Below, one piece after another: positions 1 to 29,760 of a stretch of 38,866 nt of DNA; position 1 is the first letter of the stretch; each line of letters opens with the position of its first letter. The position numbers and the translations under genes were made by a program. Source of the stretch: a virus (lineage: Duplodnaviria; Heunggongvirae; Uroviricota; Caudoviricetes); the IMG/VR virus record IMGVR_UViG_2695420485_000017; one strand, given 5' to 3'. The notes under the pieces are model-generated. The model worked only from the letters and a program-made list of their open reading frames with translations. It did no database searches and was not told the DNA's origin.

Positions 1-1167
1 TCAGGCCTTATGGTGGAAATAATCACTCAGGCGGGAAAACATGCCGCCTTCCCCGACAGATTCCAGGGTAACCAGCGGCCAGTGCGCCACCTGTTTATCA
101 CGGTCGTAAAGTTCAATTTCCCCTACCCGCTGATGGGCGCTAATTGGCGCGGTGAGCTCTTTACCATCAAGGGTATATTTGGCTTTGATATGTGGAATTT
201 CGGCTTTCGGTAGCACCATCCAGAACTCTTGTTCCGTTCCCAGGTCGATATTTTCTTTATCGCCATACCAGATGCGTTCCGTTCCGACCTTTTTCCCACG
301 GTGCAAAATTTGCACCGTAGTAAAGTTTTGTTGCCCCCAACGCAGTAATTTTCTTGCCTCTTCCTCACGACCTTTTGCACTGTCAGCCCCCATTACCACT
401 GCAATGAGACGACGCTGCCCATCTACAGCCGAAGCAATGAGATTAAACCCGGCACCAGAAGTATGACCCGTTTTCAGGCCGTCAACATTCATGGTTTTAT
501 CCCACAACAACCCGTTACGGTTTTGCTGGGTGATACCGTTCCAGGTGAGACTTTTCTCACTGTACATATGATAAAACTCGGGCTCGCCGTGGATGATAGC
601 GCGAGAAAGCACAGCTAAATCATAAGCCGAGCTATGCTGGCCAGGTGCATCCAGACCATGCACTGTTTCAAAATGCGTATCCTTGAGATGCAGCTTCTCG
701 GCATAGTTGTTCATCATTTCAACAAACTGCCGTTGCCCACCGGCAATATAGTCAGCCAGAGCAACACAAGCGTCATTTCCGGAATCCACAATTAAACCAC
801 GGCTTAAATCACGTACCGATACGCGATCGCCCTCTTTCAAAAACATCAGTGAAGAACCGACAAACACCGGATTATCTTTCGCCCACGCATCGCGCCCCAC
901 GGTGACAATATCGTCTGGCGTAATGCGATGACTATCGATAGCGCGATCCACGACATAACCCGTCATCAGCTTTGTCAGGCTGGCGGGATTGCGCTGTTGA
1001 TGCTCATTACCCGCGGTGAGGATCTGACCGGTGGTGTAATCCATCAATACCCAGGACCCGGCATGAATCTCTGGAGGCTGAGGTAAAAAAGGAATGTTTT
1101 CCGCCGCAAAACCAGACGATAAGTTAAAAACGAACAAAGAAGCAGCAATAATAAGACGGCGTTTCAA
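1..1167 (-). CDS. dacD: D-alanyl-D-alanine carboxypeptidase DacD (PBP6b)
   Basis: Full-length ORF matching recalled E. coli DacD (MKRRLIIAASLFVFNLSSGFAAEN...); probable TTG start at 1165-1167, ORF track extends to 1173. Confidence 0.9.
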   Translation of the reverse strand: MKRRLIIAASLFVFNLSSGFAAENIPFLPQPPEIHAGSWVLMDYTTGQILTAGNEHQQRNPASLTKLMTGYVVDRAIDSHRITPDDIVTVGRDAWAKDNPVFVGSSLMFLKEGDRVSVRDLSRGLIVDSGNDACVALADYIAGGQRQFVEMMNNYAEKLHLKDTHFETVHGLDAPGQHSSAYDLAVLSRAIIHGEPEFYHMYSEKSLTWNGITQQNRNGLLWDKTMNVDGLKTGHTSGAGFNLIASAVDGQRRLIAVVMGADSAKGREEEARKLLRWGQQNFTTVQILHRGKKVGTERIWYGDKENIDLGTEQEFWMVLPKAEIPHIKAKYTLDGKELTAPISAHQRVGEIELYDRDKQVAHWPLVTLESVGEGGMFSRLSDYFHHKA

Positions 1168-1375
1168 CAGCAAACCCTCAGGAGTTTCAAATAGCTGTTC
1201 TTTTTACGGAAATACTTATGAACTGGCTGGAATAAAGTGCAAGAAAATGTGACTACCCTCTCATTTTTATCTGACATGATCTGTTGCCACTCGCTGCCAA
1301 ATTGTGGCGCTAAAGCTGATTAGCACGGTGATATTTGATACTCTGGCAGACAGCAGAAATAACGGATTTAACCTA

Positions 1376-2006: not shown

Positions 2007-3464
2007 TTAAACAACAATTTTAAGGAAGTTTGAAGCATCCTTATAAATGGTGCCCGCGGGGGCGCCGTTTATCTCCTCAAGCGTTTTTACGTTCTTCAAA
2101 ACCACCTTGCCATCTTCCAGAAATTCAATGCATGGTGCGTCGTTGTTCATGTTTATTTTCAACGAACCAACAGCACTACCTCCGTTTCCGCTTATCCATT
2201 CAAGTGACGCAATAGGAAGTGCATTGCCGTTGTGATCTGTCCCTTGTAGCAAGATCATTCCAGTTCCTACCCCTGGTATTCTGATAGCTGCGCGACCACC
2301 ATCCTCTAAAACTACTTCCAAAATTTCTTTAGGATATTTTGTGTGCACCCCTACACGCGTCAGCGAACCACCACCAGGGACGACGGCAATACCTGGAATA
2401 AGCGATTCTGCAAAAAGCATCACTGAGTCTTTATGTGGATTGATTGCTGGCTTATCGTCATTAGTGCCGCTCCCTATCGCAATCGAACCACCATAAGCCT
2501 GAATATTCTTACCTACAGCAAAAGAGCCATCTCCTGCCGCGCGAGTTCGATATCCAATGGCCGCCGCACCAATGCCATCACTTGCAACCCCGCCGGGGTC
2601 TGTAGTGTATCCCGGTCTGGCTTGCGTAAAATAACCTGTTGTAAAAGCCGCCCTTGAAAGCGCTTCCGTTTCTTCACAGAATGCGGCAGATTTTGCGCCA
2701 AGAGCAATGACATTTTTCCCAAATGCAAAAGAGCAGTACCCTTCAGCATTTGGTGAGGTAATTTGATCTGGGTCGCCAGTAGCAGAACCAGCACCACCGG
2801 CAATAGATGCCACGCCATACGTAACGCAGTCATGCCCGAAAGTTGTGGTGTATACCGCGAATGACGCACCGTTTCTGTTAAAAGATACGGAGTAGTCGCC
2901 AATCATGGCTGGGTTTCCCCATGAGTTTTTTGATGGAAGCCCTCGCCAGTAGTTCTTCTCGTCATCTAGCGGCTCAAGATCAGAGCCACCAACTCTAAGA
3001 GATCCTTTTCCCTTATCAAATAACCACATCACCCCCTGAGTCAGTGATGATCCAGTTGGTCTTCCGTAGTTTACCTTCTGCCCGATCAGCTTCATTCCAT
3101 CGTCCTGAGCCAGCTCATTTCTCAGGGTGTTTGGATTATATTTAAGCACGTCAGAAAAATAGTGCTGCCGTACTCCTTGAGCATCATAAACAGCCATAGA
3201 ATGGCCTTGCACAGTTACGAACTTGGCAATCTGTCCGTTATATACCGGATATCCAGCAGCGTTAATGATGATTGGTTGAGAAACAGGAACGTGAGATCCA
3301 TCTTCGTTCTCCACATAAACCTGAATCTGGTTTTCAGGATTTACCGGGTCAGTGTCAATTTTACCGATATAAATTTTTCCATTGGCTACGGCTTTAAAAG
3401 AACGAGCCATAGTGAAGAGTTGCGAAGGCATCGATACGATCACATTGGCTGTAATGTCTGTCAT
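2007..3464 (-). CDS. Tailspike/tail fiber with P22 gp9-like head-binding N-domain and unrelated Gly-rich C-terminal domain
   Basis: First ~110 aa (MTDITANV...[13 protein letters not shown]...) resemble P22 tailspike N-terminus; ATG with GGAG RBS; last gene of late module. Confidence 0.85.
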
Positions 3465-6432: not shown

Positions 6433-8697
6433 TTACTTCTGGTTATCATCACTGTTCATCCAGTACATGATGCCTAGCCTTGATATGGTTTTCTTATCTG
6501 ATTCTGGAAGTGAGTTGTAAAACGAGCGCCAAGCAGAAGAGCGTCTTACAGTTGTATCAACGATGCTTTCTGGTGCTTGTTTTACTGCCAGCCTTGCTGC
6601 TTTCTGGAATTCTGGTGAGCTAATTAGCTTTTCTGCAGATTCCATTGATGCAGCGCCGCCCATCGCCCTGATTTTGCTGGCGACTTTTGCCCCAATTTCT
6701 GACCCAGCAACAGCACCTACTGCACTGAACGGTCCTGACACAGTTGAACCAACCGCAGTGCCAATGCGTTGGGCATGGTTAGCAACAAATTCATTTGCCG
6801 CAGTGACGCGATTAAACCGTTTGACGAACTCGTTTAGTCTTCCTGTAGTTATCTCGTAAGATTTTGCATCTTTGATAGCCTTTGCGACCTTATATACATC
6901 GTTCAGACCTGACATAGTCTCTTTTGGTAAATGTCGGGCAAGATTGCGCATCTGCCCGTTTGCTAACATGTTTTGATACCAGTCAGCAAACCCTGCAGGA
7001 TTAAAATCAGCGCCACGTTTTCCGTTCGAAAGCATATCCCGAAGACCTGTTCCCAGTAGCTCGGTTCTTAGCTTCCTGGACGGCGTGTTTTGCATCAATT
7101 CACGAAATCCTTTGGCATCGCCTTTCGACATTGCCTGTAGTGCTGTAGTTGCTTTGCGAGAAACATCACCGTTCAGCGTTCTGCCAGTTAGATTAATCAT
7201 TTGCTCTTCCATGCTTTTTCGCATCTGAACAAGCCTCTGAGCAACTTCAAAATCACGTAATGCATTTGTCTCTGACAGCGCCGCCTTTTGATCATCGGCG
7301 AGCGAACCGTAAAGCCTCGATAAAGCAGCGCGATCAGCATCTTTATATGGTCCAGAATTCTTATGAAGTGCATCACCAACAAGTCGTCGTTGCTTATTGA
7401 GATTTGCATAAGTTAATGCGCCGTTCTTGCCTGGATTAACTGCCCGAAAGACTCTCTTTTCAATAGGGTCAAGGTTTTTCATCCCGCCAAGATCTTCTGC
7501 CACCTGTTTGAGCATTGACCTTGTTGATGGCGCATCAATTTTTGCACCTGCAGGCATCGCCTTTTCAACATTGCGATAAAGCTGGTCGCTTCGTTTCATC
7601 AGCGCAGACATTCTTCCATTGATCGTATCAATAAACTTGTCGCTCATACCAAGAGCATCTTTTGCACCGGAAACGCGATCAATTATCTCCCCCGCGCCCT
7701 GTGCTAGTTGCCTGATTGCTTCATTTTCCTGCACCCGTAGAGCAGAACCCGCACGGGACTTGATTGCTTGCTCAACTGCCTTGTATTGCTCGTTCCCGGA
7801 AAAATGTGAAGGGAGTAATGAATCAACATTAAGCCTTTCAGCAGACTCCAGAACTTCAGCCTGAGGATTGATATCTAGTTCATCAAGCGATGAAGCGAGA
7901 TTTGGCCTTTTTTGTGCTGCTACTGTGCGGACGACCTCCTCTGGGTCCCTCGTCGCAGGCGTCATTGGTACACCTTGTGCTGCTCTTGCCTCTGCGGCAT
8001 GAACCGCAGGATTTGTTGCTGCAGCGGCATCACCGGAGAATGGTGATGTTTCTGTTGGCGCAGTACCGGAGAATGGTGATGTTTCTGTTGGCGCAGTGGT
8101 CGCTCTCTGTGCAGATGTTTTATTGCCACTAATTATATTTGATGCACCACGAACACCACGGGTAACGCCATTTATCAGGCCATGCGTAGCAATGTTAAGT
8201 CCGGCATTAATAGCGGCATTTTCGGCAAAATCACCCCGTTGATTCGCCGCGTCAGCGAGAGAACCAATGACCATGTTTCCAGCTACTCCTGCTCCAGGAA
8301 CAAGATAACCGCCTATTGACTCTCCAGCTTGAGCGTAGGGGTCTGTCGGTCTGTCTACTGGGCGATAAACATCATCCAAAACCTTGGGGCCACCAAGCCC
8401 CTGGCTGATTGCATTAATCAGACTTGCGCCACCCTGCAATACGTCAAATGGTATGTTTACCAGACCACGACCAGCCTGCTCTGCAATTTGCCCTGCACTT
8501 TGACCACCTGTGAGCCAATCGCCAGCTTGTTGCATCAATGATGGTTCTTCACGTGCTGGTTCATTATTGGCCTGATTAACTGTTTGTTGCTGAACAGCCT
8601 GACCAGCAAAATACTCATCAATGGCGGTGCCAATATCTTCCGTGCTCGTACCATCAGGGAAGGTAAATGTCTTACCGTTTGCAGTTACTTTCATCAT
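6433..8697 (-). CDS. Ejection/DNA-transfer protein, P22 gp16-like
   Basis: 754-aa ORF in gp7-gp20-gp16 order; start overlaps gp20 stop (GAATGATGA); Gly/Ala-rich. Confidence 0.75.
8053..8118. repeat. Tandem 33-bp in-frame duplication inside gp16-like gene
   Basis: ccggagaatggtgatgtttctgttggcgcagt(a/g) repeated twice, encoding [11 protein letters not shown] twice. Confidence 0.7.
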
Positions 8698-10160
8698 TCC
8701 ACCGTAAATTGAATGCCTGATTTTGAGGTATATGATCCGGATTGACTCTGCTGCTGTTGGGTATTTGTCGGTTGTTGGCTATTGCTCTGTTGTTGACTAT
8801 TTGCAGCACTTGAAACCACCAAAGCATCATAAACGCGACCAGACTGACCACGTAATGAGTTATATTGGCCCTGCATTTTTCGCATTTTTGTTTCAGTAGC
8901 AGCCTTGGAATCACCAGGCTGAGGCAGGTACATTTTGGAATACTCCTGCATCTCTGGCAGAGTAATTGCTGCACCTGTTTCTGGGCGCAAAATTGCATAC
9001 AAGGCGTCTCTCGCATTTACCATATATTGCTGCTCCGCTGGTGATAGGCTTAAATTTGCAATAGTCCCATCGCCAAGAGAGCGATTTATTAATGCAACTC
9101 GCTTTGGATCAATGCTTTTACTAAGCTGATTCATTGAGTCCATTGAGTCTTTTAATCGCAAAGCAAATCCTGCCGCCTTCTTGGAACCCTCATTAGCCTT
9201 ATCTATGATGCTTTGCGCTTGTGGCAAGCTAATTGGTTTAATACCATCACCAGATATAGGTTGGTTTAGTTTTCCGGCTTCCTCGCTTCCATCGGTGTAA
9301 TACTTAGTTACCGAGCCATCAGGATTGGTTTCAACCTTAAGTAATCTCTTAGCGTTGGGATTAATTCCCGCCGCTGCCGCAAATGCCGCTGCCCCCTCTG
9401 GATCCGCCTTTAACATTTGCGCATACTGATTGTAATTCTGCATTGCGGCTGTTGGTGCATATGCTGACGTTAACGCATTTGCTCGGCTAATATCCTGTCC
9501 TCTCACCTGAAGTGCCTCGCCAGCCTGATTGCTGCGGATTGTCTCTGCCAGCCTGCCTCGGTCAATTTCACGACCAGCCATCTTGTCCTGAACATTGAAG
9601 TAATCAATCGGACCAAGCGCAGCCATCCCAAGGTGATCAACAAACTCACTAAATCCTGAAGGATTCTGCTGATACATCTGAGCAACGTTATTAGGGTCAA
9701 CACCGACACGAGTAAGTTCCTTGGCGTTGTTTTGCAGCCATGATTGCATTGCTTCTGGAGACGATGCCGCAAGACGAGCGCCAGCCGATAAGGTTCCGAT
9801 AGAATTGCGCTGGTCTTCATCAATGAATCCCATGCCTTTACGAACGGATTCAATCTGGTCTGGATATTGAGTAGCCAACTGACGCAAAGCACCGCGATCA
9901 CCAGACGCATAAGCATTAGCGTATGCCTGCTGAAATTCTTTCTGCCGCTGAGCCTGCTTTTCCTGCTGAAACACCCCCGCAATACCTGAAAGGCCTTGCA
10001 AAGCAGTCAGCCCAACATTGTTAGCGCCTGAACGCTCAATATCATTGTTCTGCCTGATAAGCTGAAGCGTATTGCCGATGTCATTTACTCTCGGAGCGTT
10101 TGAGTTGATGCCGCCGATACCAGCCAACAATCCGCCATTTGCCCCCTGCCAAGTAGCCAT
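8694..10160 (-). CDS. Ejection/DNA-transfer protein, P22 gp20-like
   Basis: 488-aa ORF, position between gp7-like and gp16-like genes; ATG start. Confidence 0.75.
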
Positions 10161-10169
10161 GATTCCCCC

Positions 10170-10862
10170 TTAAAACAACGAGCCAAGCAATCCGATACCA
10201 GCACCAATGCCAGCGCCCCAAGGTGTTGATGTTCCCAAAAGACTGGCAAGACCTGCACCGGCAATCGCACCAGACGTGCCACCGCTAATTGCAGTCTGAA
10301 GACTTGATGGTTTATTGGCATTAGCAGCGGCAAGTGCTGCGCTTTGCTGTGCAATGCTGCTCATGTTGTTGGCGTATGTCTGCCCGGCGTTCGCCTGACC
10401 TTGCAGCGCACCAAGGCCAATGTTTGCCAGATTGTTGTAGTTGCTCATCTGGTTTGATAACCAAGACTGACCGAGAGTCGGCGCGATCGTAGCCAGTTGA
10501 TTGCTTGTGGCTGTCGAACCAAGTCCTCCCGTAGCCTCCGCAGCAGCAAGACTCTGGTAACGAGCCTGACCTGCAAGGTCTTTATACTGCTGAGAGTTGT
10601 AATACTGATTAAGTGCCTGACCCTGTCCTTCTAAACTGGAAAGGTTCTGAAGCTGGTTAACATACTGCTCCGCAAGCGGCGTGAACGGAGCAAGGTTTTT
10701 CATGATCGTCTGCCACTGCTGATTTTGCAGGTCTGCGGCATACTTCTGAGCTTCTGCTGCATACTTTGCGCTTTTATCAGAGCTGCCACCTTTCCCGCCT
10801 TTTTCAGGGCAATAAGGTTCCTCGCCGCGCAGTTTTCTGCCCAGCTTAAATGCATATAACAT
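10170..10862 (-). CDS. Ejection protein, P22 gp7-like
   Basis: 230-aa ORF, Gly/Ala-rich C-terminus, N-terminus MLYAFKLGRKLRGEEPY; synteny. Confidence 0.75.
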   Translation of the reverse strand: MLYAFKLGRKLRGEEPYCPEKGGKGGSSDKSAKYAAEAQKYAADLQNQQWQTIMKNLAPFTPLAEQYVNQLQNLSSLEGQGQALNQYYNSQQYKDLAGQARYQSLAAAEATGGLGSTATSNQLATIAPTLGQSWLSNQMSNYNNLANIGLGALQGQANAGQTYANNMSSIAQQSAALAAANANKPSSLQTAISGGTSGAIAGAGLASLLGTSTPWGAGIGAGIGLLGSLF

Positions 10863-27443: not shown

Positions 27444-28895
27444 TCAGAATCCTCCTTTCTTCTTGGACTGCGGTTCCTCGCGTTCACGGCGGCGCATTTC
27501 AGCAGACTGTTGGTCTGTGTCATAAATAGCGCCATTTGCCTGAATGCAATACACCGTGCCGGTATTGCCATGACGATTGAGACGAAGGATTAGTTCGGTT
27601 TCACCAGGTGGAACACTGTCATCAAAAGCACCTTCACGATGGATCCCCACCCAATAATCGCAATCCTGTTCAATCTGCCCTGTATCTCGTGAGTCACTTG
27701 GTAATGGGCGTTTATTGGTTCGGCTTTCCAGTGCGCGGTTAAGCTGCGTCAGAAGCACAACAACGCAATCAAGCTCTTTGGCAAGGTTCTTCAGTCCTTT
27801 GGTGATCATGCCGTAAGCAAGGTCGTTGCGATCGGCCTTTTCAGCGGTCATTAGTGTCAGGTAATCGACCAGAATCATGCCAACACATCCTTTTTCTCGC
27901 TTGATTCGACGACTTTCGCTGACGATTTGAGCCAGAGATAATCCCGGCGTGTCGTCGATGTAAAGCAGGTCGATTTCACTCAAGCGATTAGCTGTTTCGA
28001 TCGCCCTGTTGAAGTCACCATCGTAATCACCCTGATAGCCGTCATCGGCGTCATTTGTCGCCGGAAGGTAAAAAATATTCGGGTTAACACCTGACTTCTG
28101 TCCTACCAGTTTTTCCAGTATCTGGTCACCTGGCATTTCAAGGCTGAACATCAGAGCGGGCTTTTTCTCATGAACTGCGCAGTTGATTGCCATCTGGCTG
28201 TATAGCGTCGTTTTCCCCATCTTAGGGCGAGCGCCAATGACAAACAGAGAGCCTTTCACCAGACCTTTCGGTGACAGCATCCTGTCCAGCGATGGGATAC
28301 CTGTGCTCATCCCTCGTTGTTCGCCTGACGGGTCAAATCGCTTCTCAAGGTCGCTAACCCAGTCTTCCATGACCTCGCCAAATGAGCGAAGGCCGCGACG
28401 CGATCCGGTTTTTGCATGGTCTGTCAGTTGCGTGAAAATCGCCTGAATAGCTTCGTACTTCTGCGTTGCAGTCATTCCGTTGCGGGAATAGAGCAATTCC
28501 GTCGCTTCAGTCATGCGGTTGATGGCGTAGCGTTCCATTGCGGTTTCGCGAACCTGCATTGCATAGGCAACGATGTTTGCGGCGCTTGGCGTGTTCTTTG
28601 CGATCTCAGCGATATAAGCAAAACCGCCAACAGACACCGTTAACGATTTGCGATCCAGTTCATCGAAAAGCGTCAGGCCATCTACTGGCTTTTGCTCCCG
28701 GTGCATTCTGGTTATTTCTTCGAAAAGGATTTTGTGTGGTCGGCTGTAAAATGAATCAGGCTTCAGCATCGCCAGAACTTTCTGGACGCGCTCACTGCTG
28801 TCATCATCCAGAAGCAATCCACCAATCACCGCCTGCTCTGCCTCGATGCTATGGGGCGGCGCATAAAAATTATCGGTCATCGTGTTCACCCTCAC
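27444..28895 (-). CDS. DnaB-like replicative helicase (P22 gene 12-like)
   Basis: 483 aa, Walker A GARPKMGKT, DnaB N-terminal domain; follows O-like gene; exact start (28895 or 28880) uncertain. Confidence 0.9.
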   Translation of the reverse strand: MRVNTMTDNFYAPPHSIEAEQAVIGGLLLDDDSSERVQKVLAMLKPDSFYSRPHKILFEEITRMHREQKPVDGLTLFDELDRKSLTVSVGGFAYIAEIAKNTPSAANIVAYAMQVRETAMERYAINRMTEATELLYSRNGMTATQKYEAIQAIFTQLTDHAKTGSRRGLRSFGEVMEDWVSDLEKRFDPSGEQRGMSTGIPSLDRMLSPKGLVKGSLFVIGARPKMGKTTLYSQMAINCAVHEKKPALMFSLEMPGDQILEKLVGQKSGVNPNIFYLPATNDADDGYQGDYDGDFNRAIETANRLSEIDLLYIDDTPGLSLAQIVSESRRIKREKGCVGMILVDYLTLMTAEKADRNDLAYGMITKGLKNLAKELDCVVVLLTQLNRALESRTNKRPLPSDSRDTGQIEQDCDYWVGIHREGAFDDSVPPGETELILRLNRHGNTGTVYCIQANGAIYDTDQQSAEMRRREREEPQSKKKGGF

Positions 28896-29760
28896 GAACT
28901 TTCAGGTAGGTATTATCGTTAAGCAGGAAATCAAATCCCTTTTTGTGCCAGACAGTTCCGCGTTGATGGTTTGGGCGCTCTTCGAACATCCATCGGCAAT
29001 TTTCTCCTACGTAGCTCAAATAATTTCTCCAGTCCTGCATCGTGAACCCATGCCCGTCAAGCTGGCGGGTTATCACTCCGGCTTTGCGCCAGAACGTTCG
29101 GATCTGGTTTTTACGCTTGTCATTCAGTGCGCGGATTCTTGGCGCTTCAGGAAGGATTTCGTGGTAAGCATCGACAACATCCTGACAGCTAACGGAAGGT
29201 TTTTTCTTGTCAGACTTTTTGTCTGCTGTGGCACTCTCTAATACGTCAGTATTAGAGATATTATTTATATTATTGTTTATGGACAACCGTTGGACAACCG
29301 TTGGACAATCTCCGCTGAGAGCCGCGCCATTACTGGTGTTTGCGTTGGACAACCGTTGGACAACCGTTGGACAATTTTTTGCCTGAAAATCGTCATATTT
29401 AACGATTGTAAACAGGCTAAATTTCTTCCCCATCGAGCAAATATTAAGCATCCCTTTCGACTCAAAAGTCCGTAATAAGCTCCGAACTTTGTTGTCGGGG
29501 ATGAATGTTTCTCTGACCAGCGACGGGCGTCCAGTTATCATCTGACCGCGATCAACAGTTATCGGACCGATATCCGTATTGACGACAGTAGATTCGTGAT
29601 TAGCCTTGAGGATTAAGTGAAGCCAAAGATGTACTGCCTGAGAGTCCTTATAGAGCCTGCTGTCCATAAACTGGCGGTGTATAGAGACATACCCCATACT
29701 GGATGCCTCCTGATGTTGTACAGGGTTATGCCTGTAATCAGCTAACTTAACGACGCCCAT
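28870..29760 (-). CDS. Replication initiator O-like protein (P22 gene 18-like)
   Basis: Iterons embedded in coding sequence encode repeated CPTVVQRLS; position after c1. Confidence 0.85.
   Translation of the reverse strand: MGVVKLADYRHNPVQHQEASSMGYVSIHRQFMDSRLYKDSQAVHLWLHLILKANHESTVVNTDIGPITVDRGQMITGRPSLVRETFIPDNKVRSLLRTFESKGMLNICSMGKKFSLFTIVKYDDFQAKNCPTVVQRLSNANTSNGAALSGDCPTVVQRLSINNNINNISNTDVLESATADKKSDKKKPSVSCQDVVDAYHEILPEAPRIRALNDKRKNQIRTFWRKAGVITRQLDGHGFTMQDWRNYLSYVGENCRWMFEERPNHQRGTVWHKKGFDFLLNDNTYLKVREGEHDDR
29281..29376. repeat. Replication origin iterons inside O gene
   Basis: Two clusters of TGGACAACCGT x2-3 separated by about 36 bp, flanked by AT-rich DNA at 29241-29280. Confidence 0.75.

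What the first reader, a model, noticed from the sequence alone, without database searches (positions are those of the whole stretch)
8053..8118. Recent in-frame 33-bp tandem duplication in gp16-like ejection protein
A 33-bp unit is repeated with 32/33 identity, duplicating the peptide [11 protein letters not shown]. The protein (754 aa) is longer than the roughly 600 aa I recall for P22 gp16, so the repeat region may be a variable linker.
Basis: seen in the sequence. Interest (0 to 1): 0.35.

Follow-up and report, generated by a model that had tools for sequence, protein, structure and literature searches.

The report
Duplicated linker in phage ejection protein
A perfect in-frame 33-bp tandem duplication lengthens by 11 residues a probably floppy, naturally length-variable linker in a P22-like prophage DNA-ejection protein; it is a real, shared population variant found in about one in seven related prophages, and otherwise ordinary.

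Summary
It lies at window 8032-8097 (not 8053-8118) and is 33/33 identical (not 32/33). It encodes [11 protein letters not shown] twice, at aa 201-222 of the minus-strand 754-aa ORF 6433-8697.

The protein is the third ejection protein of a P22-like prophage, by synteny (gp26-gp14-gp7-gp20-this). Only its first 185 aa resemble P22 gp16 (76% identity). The other roughly 500 aa are a different helical module shared with Sf101 gp13, and this module accounts for most of the extra length.

The duplication sits in the joint between the two modules. This linker is rich in Ala/Pro/Thr/Ser, is predicted as coil (pLDDT about 30), and spans 47-127 aa in homologues with no sequence conservation.

It is not an assembly artefact. 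The same two-copy allele occurs in 6 of 50 E. coli complete genomes, 4 of 23 IMG/VR contigs and 2 of 10 metagenome contigs that carry the unit.

All two-copy alleles share two tightly linked downstream SNPs, yet sit behind four different N-terminal modules. That points to one mutational origin followed by spread through recombination.

An adjacent 30-bp unit ([10 protein letters not shown]) is independently present in 2 or 3 copies in other alleles.

Verdict: an ordinary, probably near-neutral linker-length polymorphism. Low interest.

The parts
8065..8097 (-). Copy 1 of the 33-bp unit (coding strand ACTGCGCCAACAGAAACATCACCATTCTCCGGT, giving [11 protein letters not shown], aa 201-211)
8032..8064 (-). 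Copy 2 of the 33-bp unit, 33/33 identical to copy 1 (aa 212-222). This copy is absent from about 86% of related alleles.
7999..8028 (-). Adjacent 30-bp unit B (GCCGCTGCAGCAACAAATCCTGCGGTTCAT, giving [10 protein letters not shown]). It is single-copy here, but has 2 copies in L010, L011, L012 and L014 and 3 copies in L013, P0012 and P0015. It is bounded by a 5-nt GCCGC direct repeat.
7933..8142 (-). Interdomain linker, aa 186-255. A+P+T+S+G+Q make up 67% of it and hydrophobic residues 11%. The core of the segment is predicted as coil with pLDDT 27-32. Length and sequence are hypervariable in homologues.
8143..8697 (-). N-terminal P22-gp16-type module (aa 1-185), 76% identical to P22 gp16. The block aa 51-173 is nearly invariant among P22, SE1 and epsilon34.
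6433..7932 (-). C-terminal all-helical module (aa 256-754 plus stop). It is unrelated by BLASTP to the P22 gp16 C-terminus and 96-99% identical to Sf101 gp13 and APC_JM3.2 gp29. From about aa 275 to 630 it is modelled with pLDDT 77-94. No solved structural relative was found.
7936..7947 (-). Two SNPs that mark the two-copy haplotype: gene nt 751 G (Asp251; window 7947) and nt 762 G (synonymous; window 7936).
8694..10160 (-). gp20-type ejection protein gene (PF16928 Inj_translocase), the upstream neighbour. Its stop overlaps the start of the gene that carries the repeat.
10170..10862 (-). gp7-type ejection protein gene (PF25688 P22_gp7)

Best explanation
The feature is a single, historical, in-frame tandem duplication of 33 bp. 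It most likely arose by replication slippage or template switching, or by unequal exchange.

It lies in the predicted-unstructured, low-complexity linker that joins the conserved gp16-type N-terminal module to a swapped-in C-terminal helical module of the third ejection ('DNA transfer') protein of a P22-like E. coli/Shigella prophage.

The duplication adds 11 residues to a spacer that tolerates large changes of length and sequence. It is therefore probably neutral or nearly so for virion assembly and DNA delivery.

It arose once on one haplotype. Homologous recombination among P22-like prophages has since carried it behind at least four alternative N-terminal modules. It now segregates at roughly 10-20% among prophages that carry this C-terminal module.

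Shown here: the anatomy, copy-number polymorphism, haplotype linkage, linker variability, and predicted lack of structure. Inferred: the mutational mechanism, neutrality, and the role of the protein in the trans-envelope DNA conduit (taken from work on P22 gp16).
For: - Exact 2.0-copy repeat in frame.
- Phages Sf101 and APC_JM3.2 are 99% identical across the gene but exactly 33 nt shorter.
- In E. coli complete genomes, 6 of 50 hits have the full-length (two-copy) form. Most others are 33 nt shorter. Some carry +30 or +60 nt from the neighbouring unit B instead.
- The duplication junction occurs in 4 of 23 IMG/VR contigs and 2 of 10 metagenome contigs, and never twice in one contig.
- All 12 two-copy alleles carry Ala239 and Asp251. 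In the first 200 nt downstream they differ from each other by 0.5 nt on average, against 4.8 nt from one-copy alleles. The differentiation fades beyond about 800 nt.
- Two-copy alleles sit behind the [11 protein letters not shown]-transglycosylase, MAYSREQL and MAKAWKDV N-terminal modules.
- The linker is 67% A/P/T/S/G/Q. Its identity to 33 distant homologues is 6-15%, against 40-80% in the C-module, and the corresponding segment ranges from 47 to 127 aa.
- AlphaFold2 gives coil with pLDDT 27-32 for aa 172-229, against 77-94 for the C-module.
- The ORF is intact in every two-copy allele that is complete.
Against: - No functional data exist for any allele.
- No cultured, plaque-forming phage in the phage collection carries two copies; only Sf101 and APC_JM3.2 match, and both have one. 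Full function of the two-copy protein is therefore assumed from intact ORFs, not shown.
- The unit-A junction has no microhomology, which is unusual for simple slippage.
- Spread of one allele across four N-terminal backgrounds could also reflect selection rather than drift.
- AlphaFold confidence is also low for the highly conserved N-module (aa 35-171), so low pLDDT alone does not prove disorder.
- Many E. coli hits are clonally related ETEC isolates, so the frequencies are rough.
Confidence: 0.82

Rival explanations
1. Adaptive spacer tuning. The extra 11 residues change the reach or flexibility between the membrane-associated N-module and the C-terminal module. The allele has been favoured, for example to fit envelope geometry or to escape a SieA-like injection block, and this is why it has spread onto several backgrounds.
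For: - One allele is found behind four N-terminal modules at about 14% frequency.
- A second, independent length polymorphism lies 3 nt away.
- Changes in gp16 and gp20 are known to determine escape from SieA exclusion (PMC10883804).
Against: - The known SieA escape changes map to the C-terminal regions of gp16 and gp20, not to a linker.
- Distant homologues tolerate linkers of 47-127 aa with no conserved motif.
- Recombination alone explains the spread in this highly mosaic region.
Confidence: 0.1
2. Assembly or sequencing artefact. A single 33-bp unit was spuriously doubled in this assembly.
For: Reads for the window are not available. Short tandem duplications can arise from mis-assembly.
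Against: - The identical 66-nt array is present in independent records: E. coli 203740 (Mali), WCHEC050613 (China), PK8217 (Pakistan), IMG/VR contigs L023 and L024, and metagenome contigs L048 and L049.
- The window also carries the two linked downstream SNPs typical of two-copy alleles.
- A 66-nt array is shorter than a sequencing read, so it is easily resolved.
Confidence: 0.03
3. Hypermutable contingency (VNTR-type) locus. Copy number changes frequently and reversibly, giving programmed variation of the ejection protein.
For: - Copy number varies for two adjacent units: unit A at 1-2 copies and unit B at 1-3 copies.
- One one-copy allele (L053) sits on the two-copy haplotype and could be a reversion.
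Against: - All 12 two-copy alleles share one flanking haplotype. There is no three-copy unit-A allele among 83 sequences.
- Only two identical units is a poor substrate for frequent slippage.
- L053 is equally well explained as the ancestral haplotype.
Confidence: 0.03
4. The repeat acts at the DNA or RNA level, as a protein-binding site, promoter, terminator or structured RNA, rather than through the protein.
For: None beyond the presence of a direct repeat.
Against: - No promoter-like or terminator-like site overlaps the repeat, and there are no inverted repeats.
- The unit is absent from homologues at 70% identity or below.
- The repeat lies in the middle of a long, conserved, translated ORF.
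Confidence: 0.02

Closest known systems
Salmonella phage P22 gp16 (ejection / 'DNA transfer' protein, 609 aa)
   Same: It holds the same position after the gp7 and gp20 homologues. The N-terminal 185 aa are 76% identical. PHROG 770 'DNA transfer protein' matches aa 1-707. By inference it shares the role of a virion-borne protein released before the DNA that helps form the inner-membrane end of the conduit (PMC10883804).
   Different: The C-terminal ~530 aa show no significant BLASTP similarity to the P22 gp16 C-terminus. The protein is 145 aa longer. P22 gp16 has neither unit A nor unit B.
Shigella phage Sf101 gp13 / Escherichia phage APC_JM3.2 gp29 (911 aa; annotated transglycosylase, lytic tail fiber protein or hypothetical)
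   Same: 99% DNA identity over gene nt 101-2265, covering the conserved N-block, the linker and the whole C-module.
   Different: They carry a ~200-aa N-terminal SLT lytic-transglycosylase domain in place of the window's first 33 aa. They have a single copy of the unit, reading [11 protein letters not shown].
Phage T7 gp16 (internal core / ejection protein)
   Same: Functional analogue in a podovirus ejectosome. It is a modular protein with periplasmic, membrane and cytoplasmic parts joined by extended segments, and its domains are swapped mosaically among phages (PMC8954989).
   Different: No sequence relationship was tested or seen here. T7 gp16 is 1318 aa with an N-terminal transglycosylase, which the window protein lacks.
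In-frame tandem-duplication length polymorphisms in low-complexity interdomain linkers (general class; from general knowledge, not tested against a named family)
   Same: Unit length is a multiple of three, composition is low-complexity, copy number varies among close relatives, and homologues tolerate length change.
   Different: There are only one or two copies and a single origin, so it is not a multi-copy hypervariable array.

Membership tests
P22 gp16-type ejection protein | Gene lies immediately downstream of the gp7 and gp20 homologues in the late operon | tested here: met
   ORFs 10170-10862 (PF25688 P22_gp7, E 1.7e-134) and 8694-10160 (PF16928 Inj_translocase, E 2e-78) precede ORF 6433-8697 on the same strand.
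P22 gp16-type ejection protein | Homology to the gp16 N-terminal conserved module | tested here: met
   76% identity over aa 2-185, E 3e-89. Nearly invariant block at aa 51-173. Homologues carry the precomputed domain PF26808.
P22 gp16-type ejection protein | Homology to P22 gp16 over the C-terminal two-thirds | tested here: not met
   No BLASTP segment with E below 0.7 beyond aa 185. tblastn against P22-group phages stops at about aa 203.
P22 gp16-type ejection protein | Packaged in the virion, ejected before the DNA, associates with the membrane | not testable with these tools
   Known for P22 gp16 only from the literature (PMC10883804, PMC8402733).
Sf101 gp13-type SLT-fused ejection protein | Shared C-terminal helical module | tested here: met
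   99% DNA identity and 96.6% protein identity over aa 46-754. PHROG 21143 E 4.8e-249.
Sf101 gp13-type SLT-fused ejection protein | N-terminal lytic transglycosylase (SLT, PF01464) domain | tested here: not met
   No Pfam or NCBIfam hits for the window protein. The Sf101 protein hits transglycosylase models at aa 3-106. The window N-terminus is MMKVTANGK, as in P22.
Intrinsically disordered interdomain linker | Low-complexity composition, poor in hydrophobic residues | tested here: met
   aa 186-255: A+P+T+S+G+Q 0.67 and hydrophobic 0.11, against 0.40-0.51 and 0.26-0.27 in the flanking modules.
Intrinsically disordered interdomain linker | No predicted secondary structure and low model confidence | tested here: met
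   AlphaFold2: aa 172-229 coil with pLDDT 27-32; C-module 77-94. Caveat: the conserved N-module is also below 50.
Intrinsically disordered interdomain linker | Length and sequence not conserved among homologues | tested here: met
   The segment is 47-127 aa in 33 homologues at 70% identity or below. Identity to the window is 6-15% there.
Intrinsically disordered interdomain linker | Experimentally disordered or protease-sensitive | not testable with these tools
   Needs limited proteolysis, HDX or NMR.
Hypermutable tandem-repeat (contingency / VNTR) locus | Copy number differs among close relatives | tested here: met
   One versus two copies of unit A and one to three copies of unit B.
Hypermutable tandem-repeat (contingency / VNTR) locus | Recurrent, independent copy-number changes | tested here: not met
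   All 12 two-copy alleles share one flanking haplotype. No three-copy allele of unit A was found.

The most novel reading that the evidence does not exclude
The junction between the gp16 N-module and its interchangeable C-modules may be a selected, length-tunable spacer. On this reading, repeated in-frame duplications (unit A at 2 copies, unit B at 2-3 copies) adjust the reach of the ejection protein in the trans-envelope DNA conduit, or help it evade prophage-encoded injection blocks. The two-copy allele would then have spread across four N-terminal backgrounds because it is advantageous.
Probability: 0.1. Interest if true: 0.45.

Novelty: new member of a known kind. Interest (0 to 1): 0.15.

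Why it matters
The duplication itself matters little. It is one more in-frame length polymorphism in a floppy linker.

Its modest value is as a marker:
- It pinpoints the joint at which gp16-type ejection proteins exchange modules.
- It shows that this spacer tolerates insertions of 10 to 22 residues, and much larger differences in distant homologues.
- It gives a clean example of one mutation being carried by recombination onto several N-terminal modules in P22-like prophages.

For people who engineer or study ejection proteins, it marks aa ~186-255 as a permissive site for insertions or tags. For annotators, it shows that several intact copies of this gene are mislabelled as pseudogenes.

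Tried and rejected
- Older 33-nt periodicity in the linker: neighbouring in-frame 33-mers match unit A at 7-14 of 33, no better than the best unrelated matches in the gene (17-18 of 33). Rejected.
- DNA-level function: the promoter, terminator and inverted-repeat scans of 7400-8800 found nothing that overlaps the repeat. Rejected.
- Solved structures: the sequence search of the PDB gave no meaningful hit. A Foldseek search with the AlphaFold model gave no hit with E at or below 0.001. The C-module fold remains unassigned.
- Pfam-A and NCBIfam gave no family for the window protein. Only PHROGs and the precomputed PF26808 label on homologues were informative.
- Source of the window: no E. coli complete genome or phage record covers more than 67% of it. 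The exact 754-aa protein is not in the 15-billion-protein collection. The source was not identified.
- Literature: no paper combines 'ejection protein', 'tandem duplication' and 'P22'. A 2026 preprint on the in-situ P22 channel was listed but could not be opened.
- The plus-strand ORF 7890-8132 (80 aa) that overlaps the repeat was treated as spurious because it is antisense to a gene with strong homology support. It was not tested further.
- A hypermutable repeat locus was considered and rejected on the haplotype evidence.

Full report
**Observation**

Reading the sequence and running Tandem Repeats Finder show one exact tandem duplication of 33 bp at window 8032-8097: period 33, 2.0 copies, 100% matches, score 132.

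It overlaps 45 of the 66 repeat bases, and its own halves are only 18/33 identical. The copies are 33/33 identical, not 32/33. The bases on both sides break the period, so the array is exactly two units with no microhomology at the junction.

In five shuffles of the window the longest period-matched run was 9-10 bases, against 33 observed. The chance expectation for an exact adjacent 33-mer in 38.9 kb is about 5e-16.

On the minus strand the array is in frame in ORF 6433-8697 (754 aa). It encodes [11 protein letters not shown] twice: aa 201-211 from 8097-8065 and aa 212-222 from 8064-8032. If the second ATG is the true start, as NCBI annotators chose in a close relative, the protein is 753 aa and these numbers shift by one.

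**What the gene is**

The neighbouring minus-strand ORFs are, in order:
- a tail needle gene (PHROG 1219), 
- a gp14-type gene (DUF2824), 
- a gp7-type gene (PF25688, E 1.7e-134), 
- a gp20-type gene (PF16928, E 2e-78), 
- then the ORF that carries the repeat.

This is the P22 order 26-14-7-20-16. Beyond it lie an Mnt/Arc repressor, an antirepressor and a tailspike with a P22 head-binding domain, followed by a host penicillin-binding-protein gene. The rest of the window resembles Sf6 and HK620. The window is therefore a mosaic P22-like prophage with one chromosomal flank.

The ORF matches PHROG 770 'DNA transfer protein' over aa 1-707 (E 3.8e-162) and PHROG 21143 (E 4.8e-249).

Comparison with P22 gp16 (609 aa) gives 76% identity over aa 2-185 (E 3e-89) and nothing significant afterwards. 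tblastn against phage genomes shows P22-group phages stopping at about aa 203. Residues ~255-750 instead match Sf101 and APC_JM3.2 at 96-97% identity. They also match 'transglycosylase/DNA transfer' proteins of Ralstonia, Klebsiella, Kosakonia, Pseudomonas and E. coli podophages at 26-32%.

So the protein is a chimera: a gp16-type N-module joined to a different, longer C-module. That C-module, not the repeat, explains most of the 145 extra residues relative to P22 gp16.

**Where the repeat sits**

The repeat lies in the joint between the two modules.

- Composition: the segment aa 186-255 is 67% A/P/T/S/G/Q and 11% hydrophobic. The flanking modules are 40-51% and 26-27% respectively.
- Conservation: in an alignment with 33 homologues of 32-70% identity, identity to the window drops to 6-15% across aa 196-240, against 40-80% in the C-module. 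The corresponding segment ranges from 47 to 127 residues and has no conserved motif.
- Structure: AlphaFold2 with that alignment (mean pLDDT 64.7) models aa 1-30 and aa ~275-630 confidently, at 85-90 and 77-94. It gives coil with pLDDT 27-32 for aa 172-229.

One caveat applies. The strongly conserved N-module (aa 35-171) is also modelled below 50. This fits the view that ejection proteins refold on release (PMC8954989), but it weakens pLDDT as a stand-alone disorder test.

Several natural joints fall just upstream of the repeat. P0016 switches sequence at [14 protein letters not shown], and P0017 is a fusion at SGNKTSAQ. One homologue, P0023 (seen on 9 contigs), lacks the whole linker.

**Copy number among relatives**

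Phages Sf101 and APC_JM3.2 are 99% identical over gene nt 101-2265 but exactly 33 nt shorter. They carry one unit.

A 531-nt query around the repeat hit 51 of 5,426 complete E. coli genomes, and 50 of these hits cover at least 80% of the query. Six have the full length. Most of the others are 33 nt shorter. A few are 528 or 558 nt long.

Extracting 16 of these loci showed three things:
- Two identical copies in L003, L004 and L005.
- Two copies differing at one base in L006 and L007 ([11 protein letters not shown] then [11 protein letters not shown]).
- The 528-nt and 558-nt forms have one unit A but two or three copies of an adjacent 30-bp unit B ([10 protein letters not shown]). Unit B is bounded by a 5-nt GCCGC direct repeat.

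A scan of IMG/VR found the duplication junction in 4 of 23 contigs that carry the unit. A metagenome scan with a degenerate pattern found two matches 33 nt apart in 2 of 10 contigs. No sequence had three copies of unit A.

Overall, 12 of 83 sequences carry two copies. Many of the E. coli hits are related ETEC isolates, so this frequency is approximate.

The 90%-identity protein cluster around the closest database relative holds 404 members. Their lengths include 754 and 922 aa (two-copy forms), 753 aa (unit B doubled) and 911 aa.

These independent records, from Mali, China, Pakistan, the UK, the USA and from gut metagenomes, make an assembly artefact very unlikely.

**One origin or several**

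All 12 two-copy alleles carry Ala239 and Asp251. Two sites, gene nt 751 and nt 762, are fixed in the nine complete two-copy alleles examined and absent from 23 one-copy alleles.

In the first 200 nt after the array, two-copy alleles differ from each other by 0.5 nt on average, but by 4.8 nt from one-copy alleles. Beyond about 800 nt the two groups are no longer distinct.

Upstream, the two-copy alleles fall into several haplotype groups. They sit behind four different N-terminal modules: MKVTANGK, the SLT transglycosylase, MAYSREQL and MAKAWKDV.

One one-copy metagenome allele, L053, has the Ala/Asp haplotype. It is either the ancestral background or a secondary loss of one copy.

This pattern fits one mutational event followed by recombination. 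It does not fit a hypermutable repeat. 'Recent' therefore holds only in the sense that the copies have not diverged in this window.

**Mechanism and function**

Shown here:
- an in-frame duplication in a non-conserved, low-complexity, predicted-unstructured spacer; 
- intact ORFs in all complete two-copy alleles; 
- a neighbouring unit with independent duplications; 
- wide natural variation in linker length.

Inferred:
- The event arose by slippage, template switching or unequal exchange. The absence of junction microhomology for unit A is noted; unit B has 5 nt.
- The extra 11 residues are neutral or nearly so.
- The protein, like P22 gp16, is released from the virion and works with gp20 at the inner-membrane end of the DNA conduit (PMC10883804).

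The main rival is that linker length is selected. This cannot be excluded. However, the known SieA escape changes map to the C-terminal regions of gp16 and gp20, and recombination alone accounts for the spread.

A DNA-level role is not supported.

**Comparison with what is known, and novelty**

This particular duplication was not found described in the literature, but the allele is present, unremarked, in public records.

It is a new instance of a familiar kind of variation. I score interest at 0.15.

Noticed in passing
L001 2397-5132 (Sf101 gp13); also L002, L006, L007, L016, L022, L048: Many P22-like prophages and phages carry a ~200-aa SLT lytic-transglycosylase domain fused to the N-terminus of this gp16-type ejection protein (911-927 aa). 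The arrangement is analogous to T7 gp16. [quoted passage not shown]
   Followed up: partly
window 7999-8028; L010-L014, P0003-P0012, P0015: A second duplication-prone unit of 30 bp ([10 protein letters not shown]), bounded by a GCCGC microhomology, lies 3 nt downstream of the reported repeat. It occurs in 2 or 3 copies in other alleles. Some copies have diverged (AVHS, AVHAS, AIH), which suggests older events than the 33-bp duplication.
   Followed up: yes
L003 2649-3881, L004, L007, L008, L009, L010, L011, L013-L016 (RefSeq annotation): RefSeq/PGAP labels this gene as a pseudogene ('incomplete; partial in the middle of a contig'). The reading frame is nevertheless open to the normal stop about 1 kb further on. 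This is probably an annotation artefact of the mosaic protein.
   Followed up: partly
window 29280-29308 and 29343-29374: Two clusters of an exact 11-bp repeat (TTGGACAACCG; 2.6 and 2.9 copies) lie 35 bp apart inside the 296-aa ORF 28870-29760. Related phages annotate replication protein O in this part of the genome. They look like origin iterons.
   Followed up: no
window 1-1173 (minus strand): The ORF that runs to the left end of the window is a host-type D-alanyl-D-alanine carboxypeptidase (PF00768 plus PBP5_C). The window therefore includes a chromosomal flank. This explains why every E. coli genome matched part of the window.
   Followed up: partly
window 2007-3464 (minus strand): The tailspike ORF with a P22 head-binding domain is only 485 aa, which seems short to me for a tailspike, and is followed by ~830 nt without a long ORF before the host gene. 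It may be truncated or of an unusual type.
   Followed up: no
L015, L016, L019 (epsilon34 gp13), P0002: A 16-aa Ala/Gly/Lys-rich insertion (IGTAAKVAGAPAKLAG) lies within the otherwise near-invariant N-module, between YLLP and the GxAGNM motif. It is another in-frame indel polymorphism in this protein.
   Followed up: no
P0023 (635 aa, 9 contigs); P0017 (730 aa): P0023 is a natural homologue that lacks the whole linker and the adjoining ends of both modules. P0017 fuses an unrelated N-terminal protein to the C-module at SGNKTSAQ, just upstream of the repeat. Both point to the linker as a breakpoint hot spot.
   Followed up: no
window 8143-8697 (aa 35-171 of the protein): The most conserved part of the protein is nearly invariant between P22, SE1, epsilon34 and this prophage, yet AlphaFold2 models it with pLDDT 33-47. 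This may mean it folds only in the membrane or in complex with other proteins.
   Followed up: no
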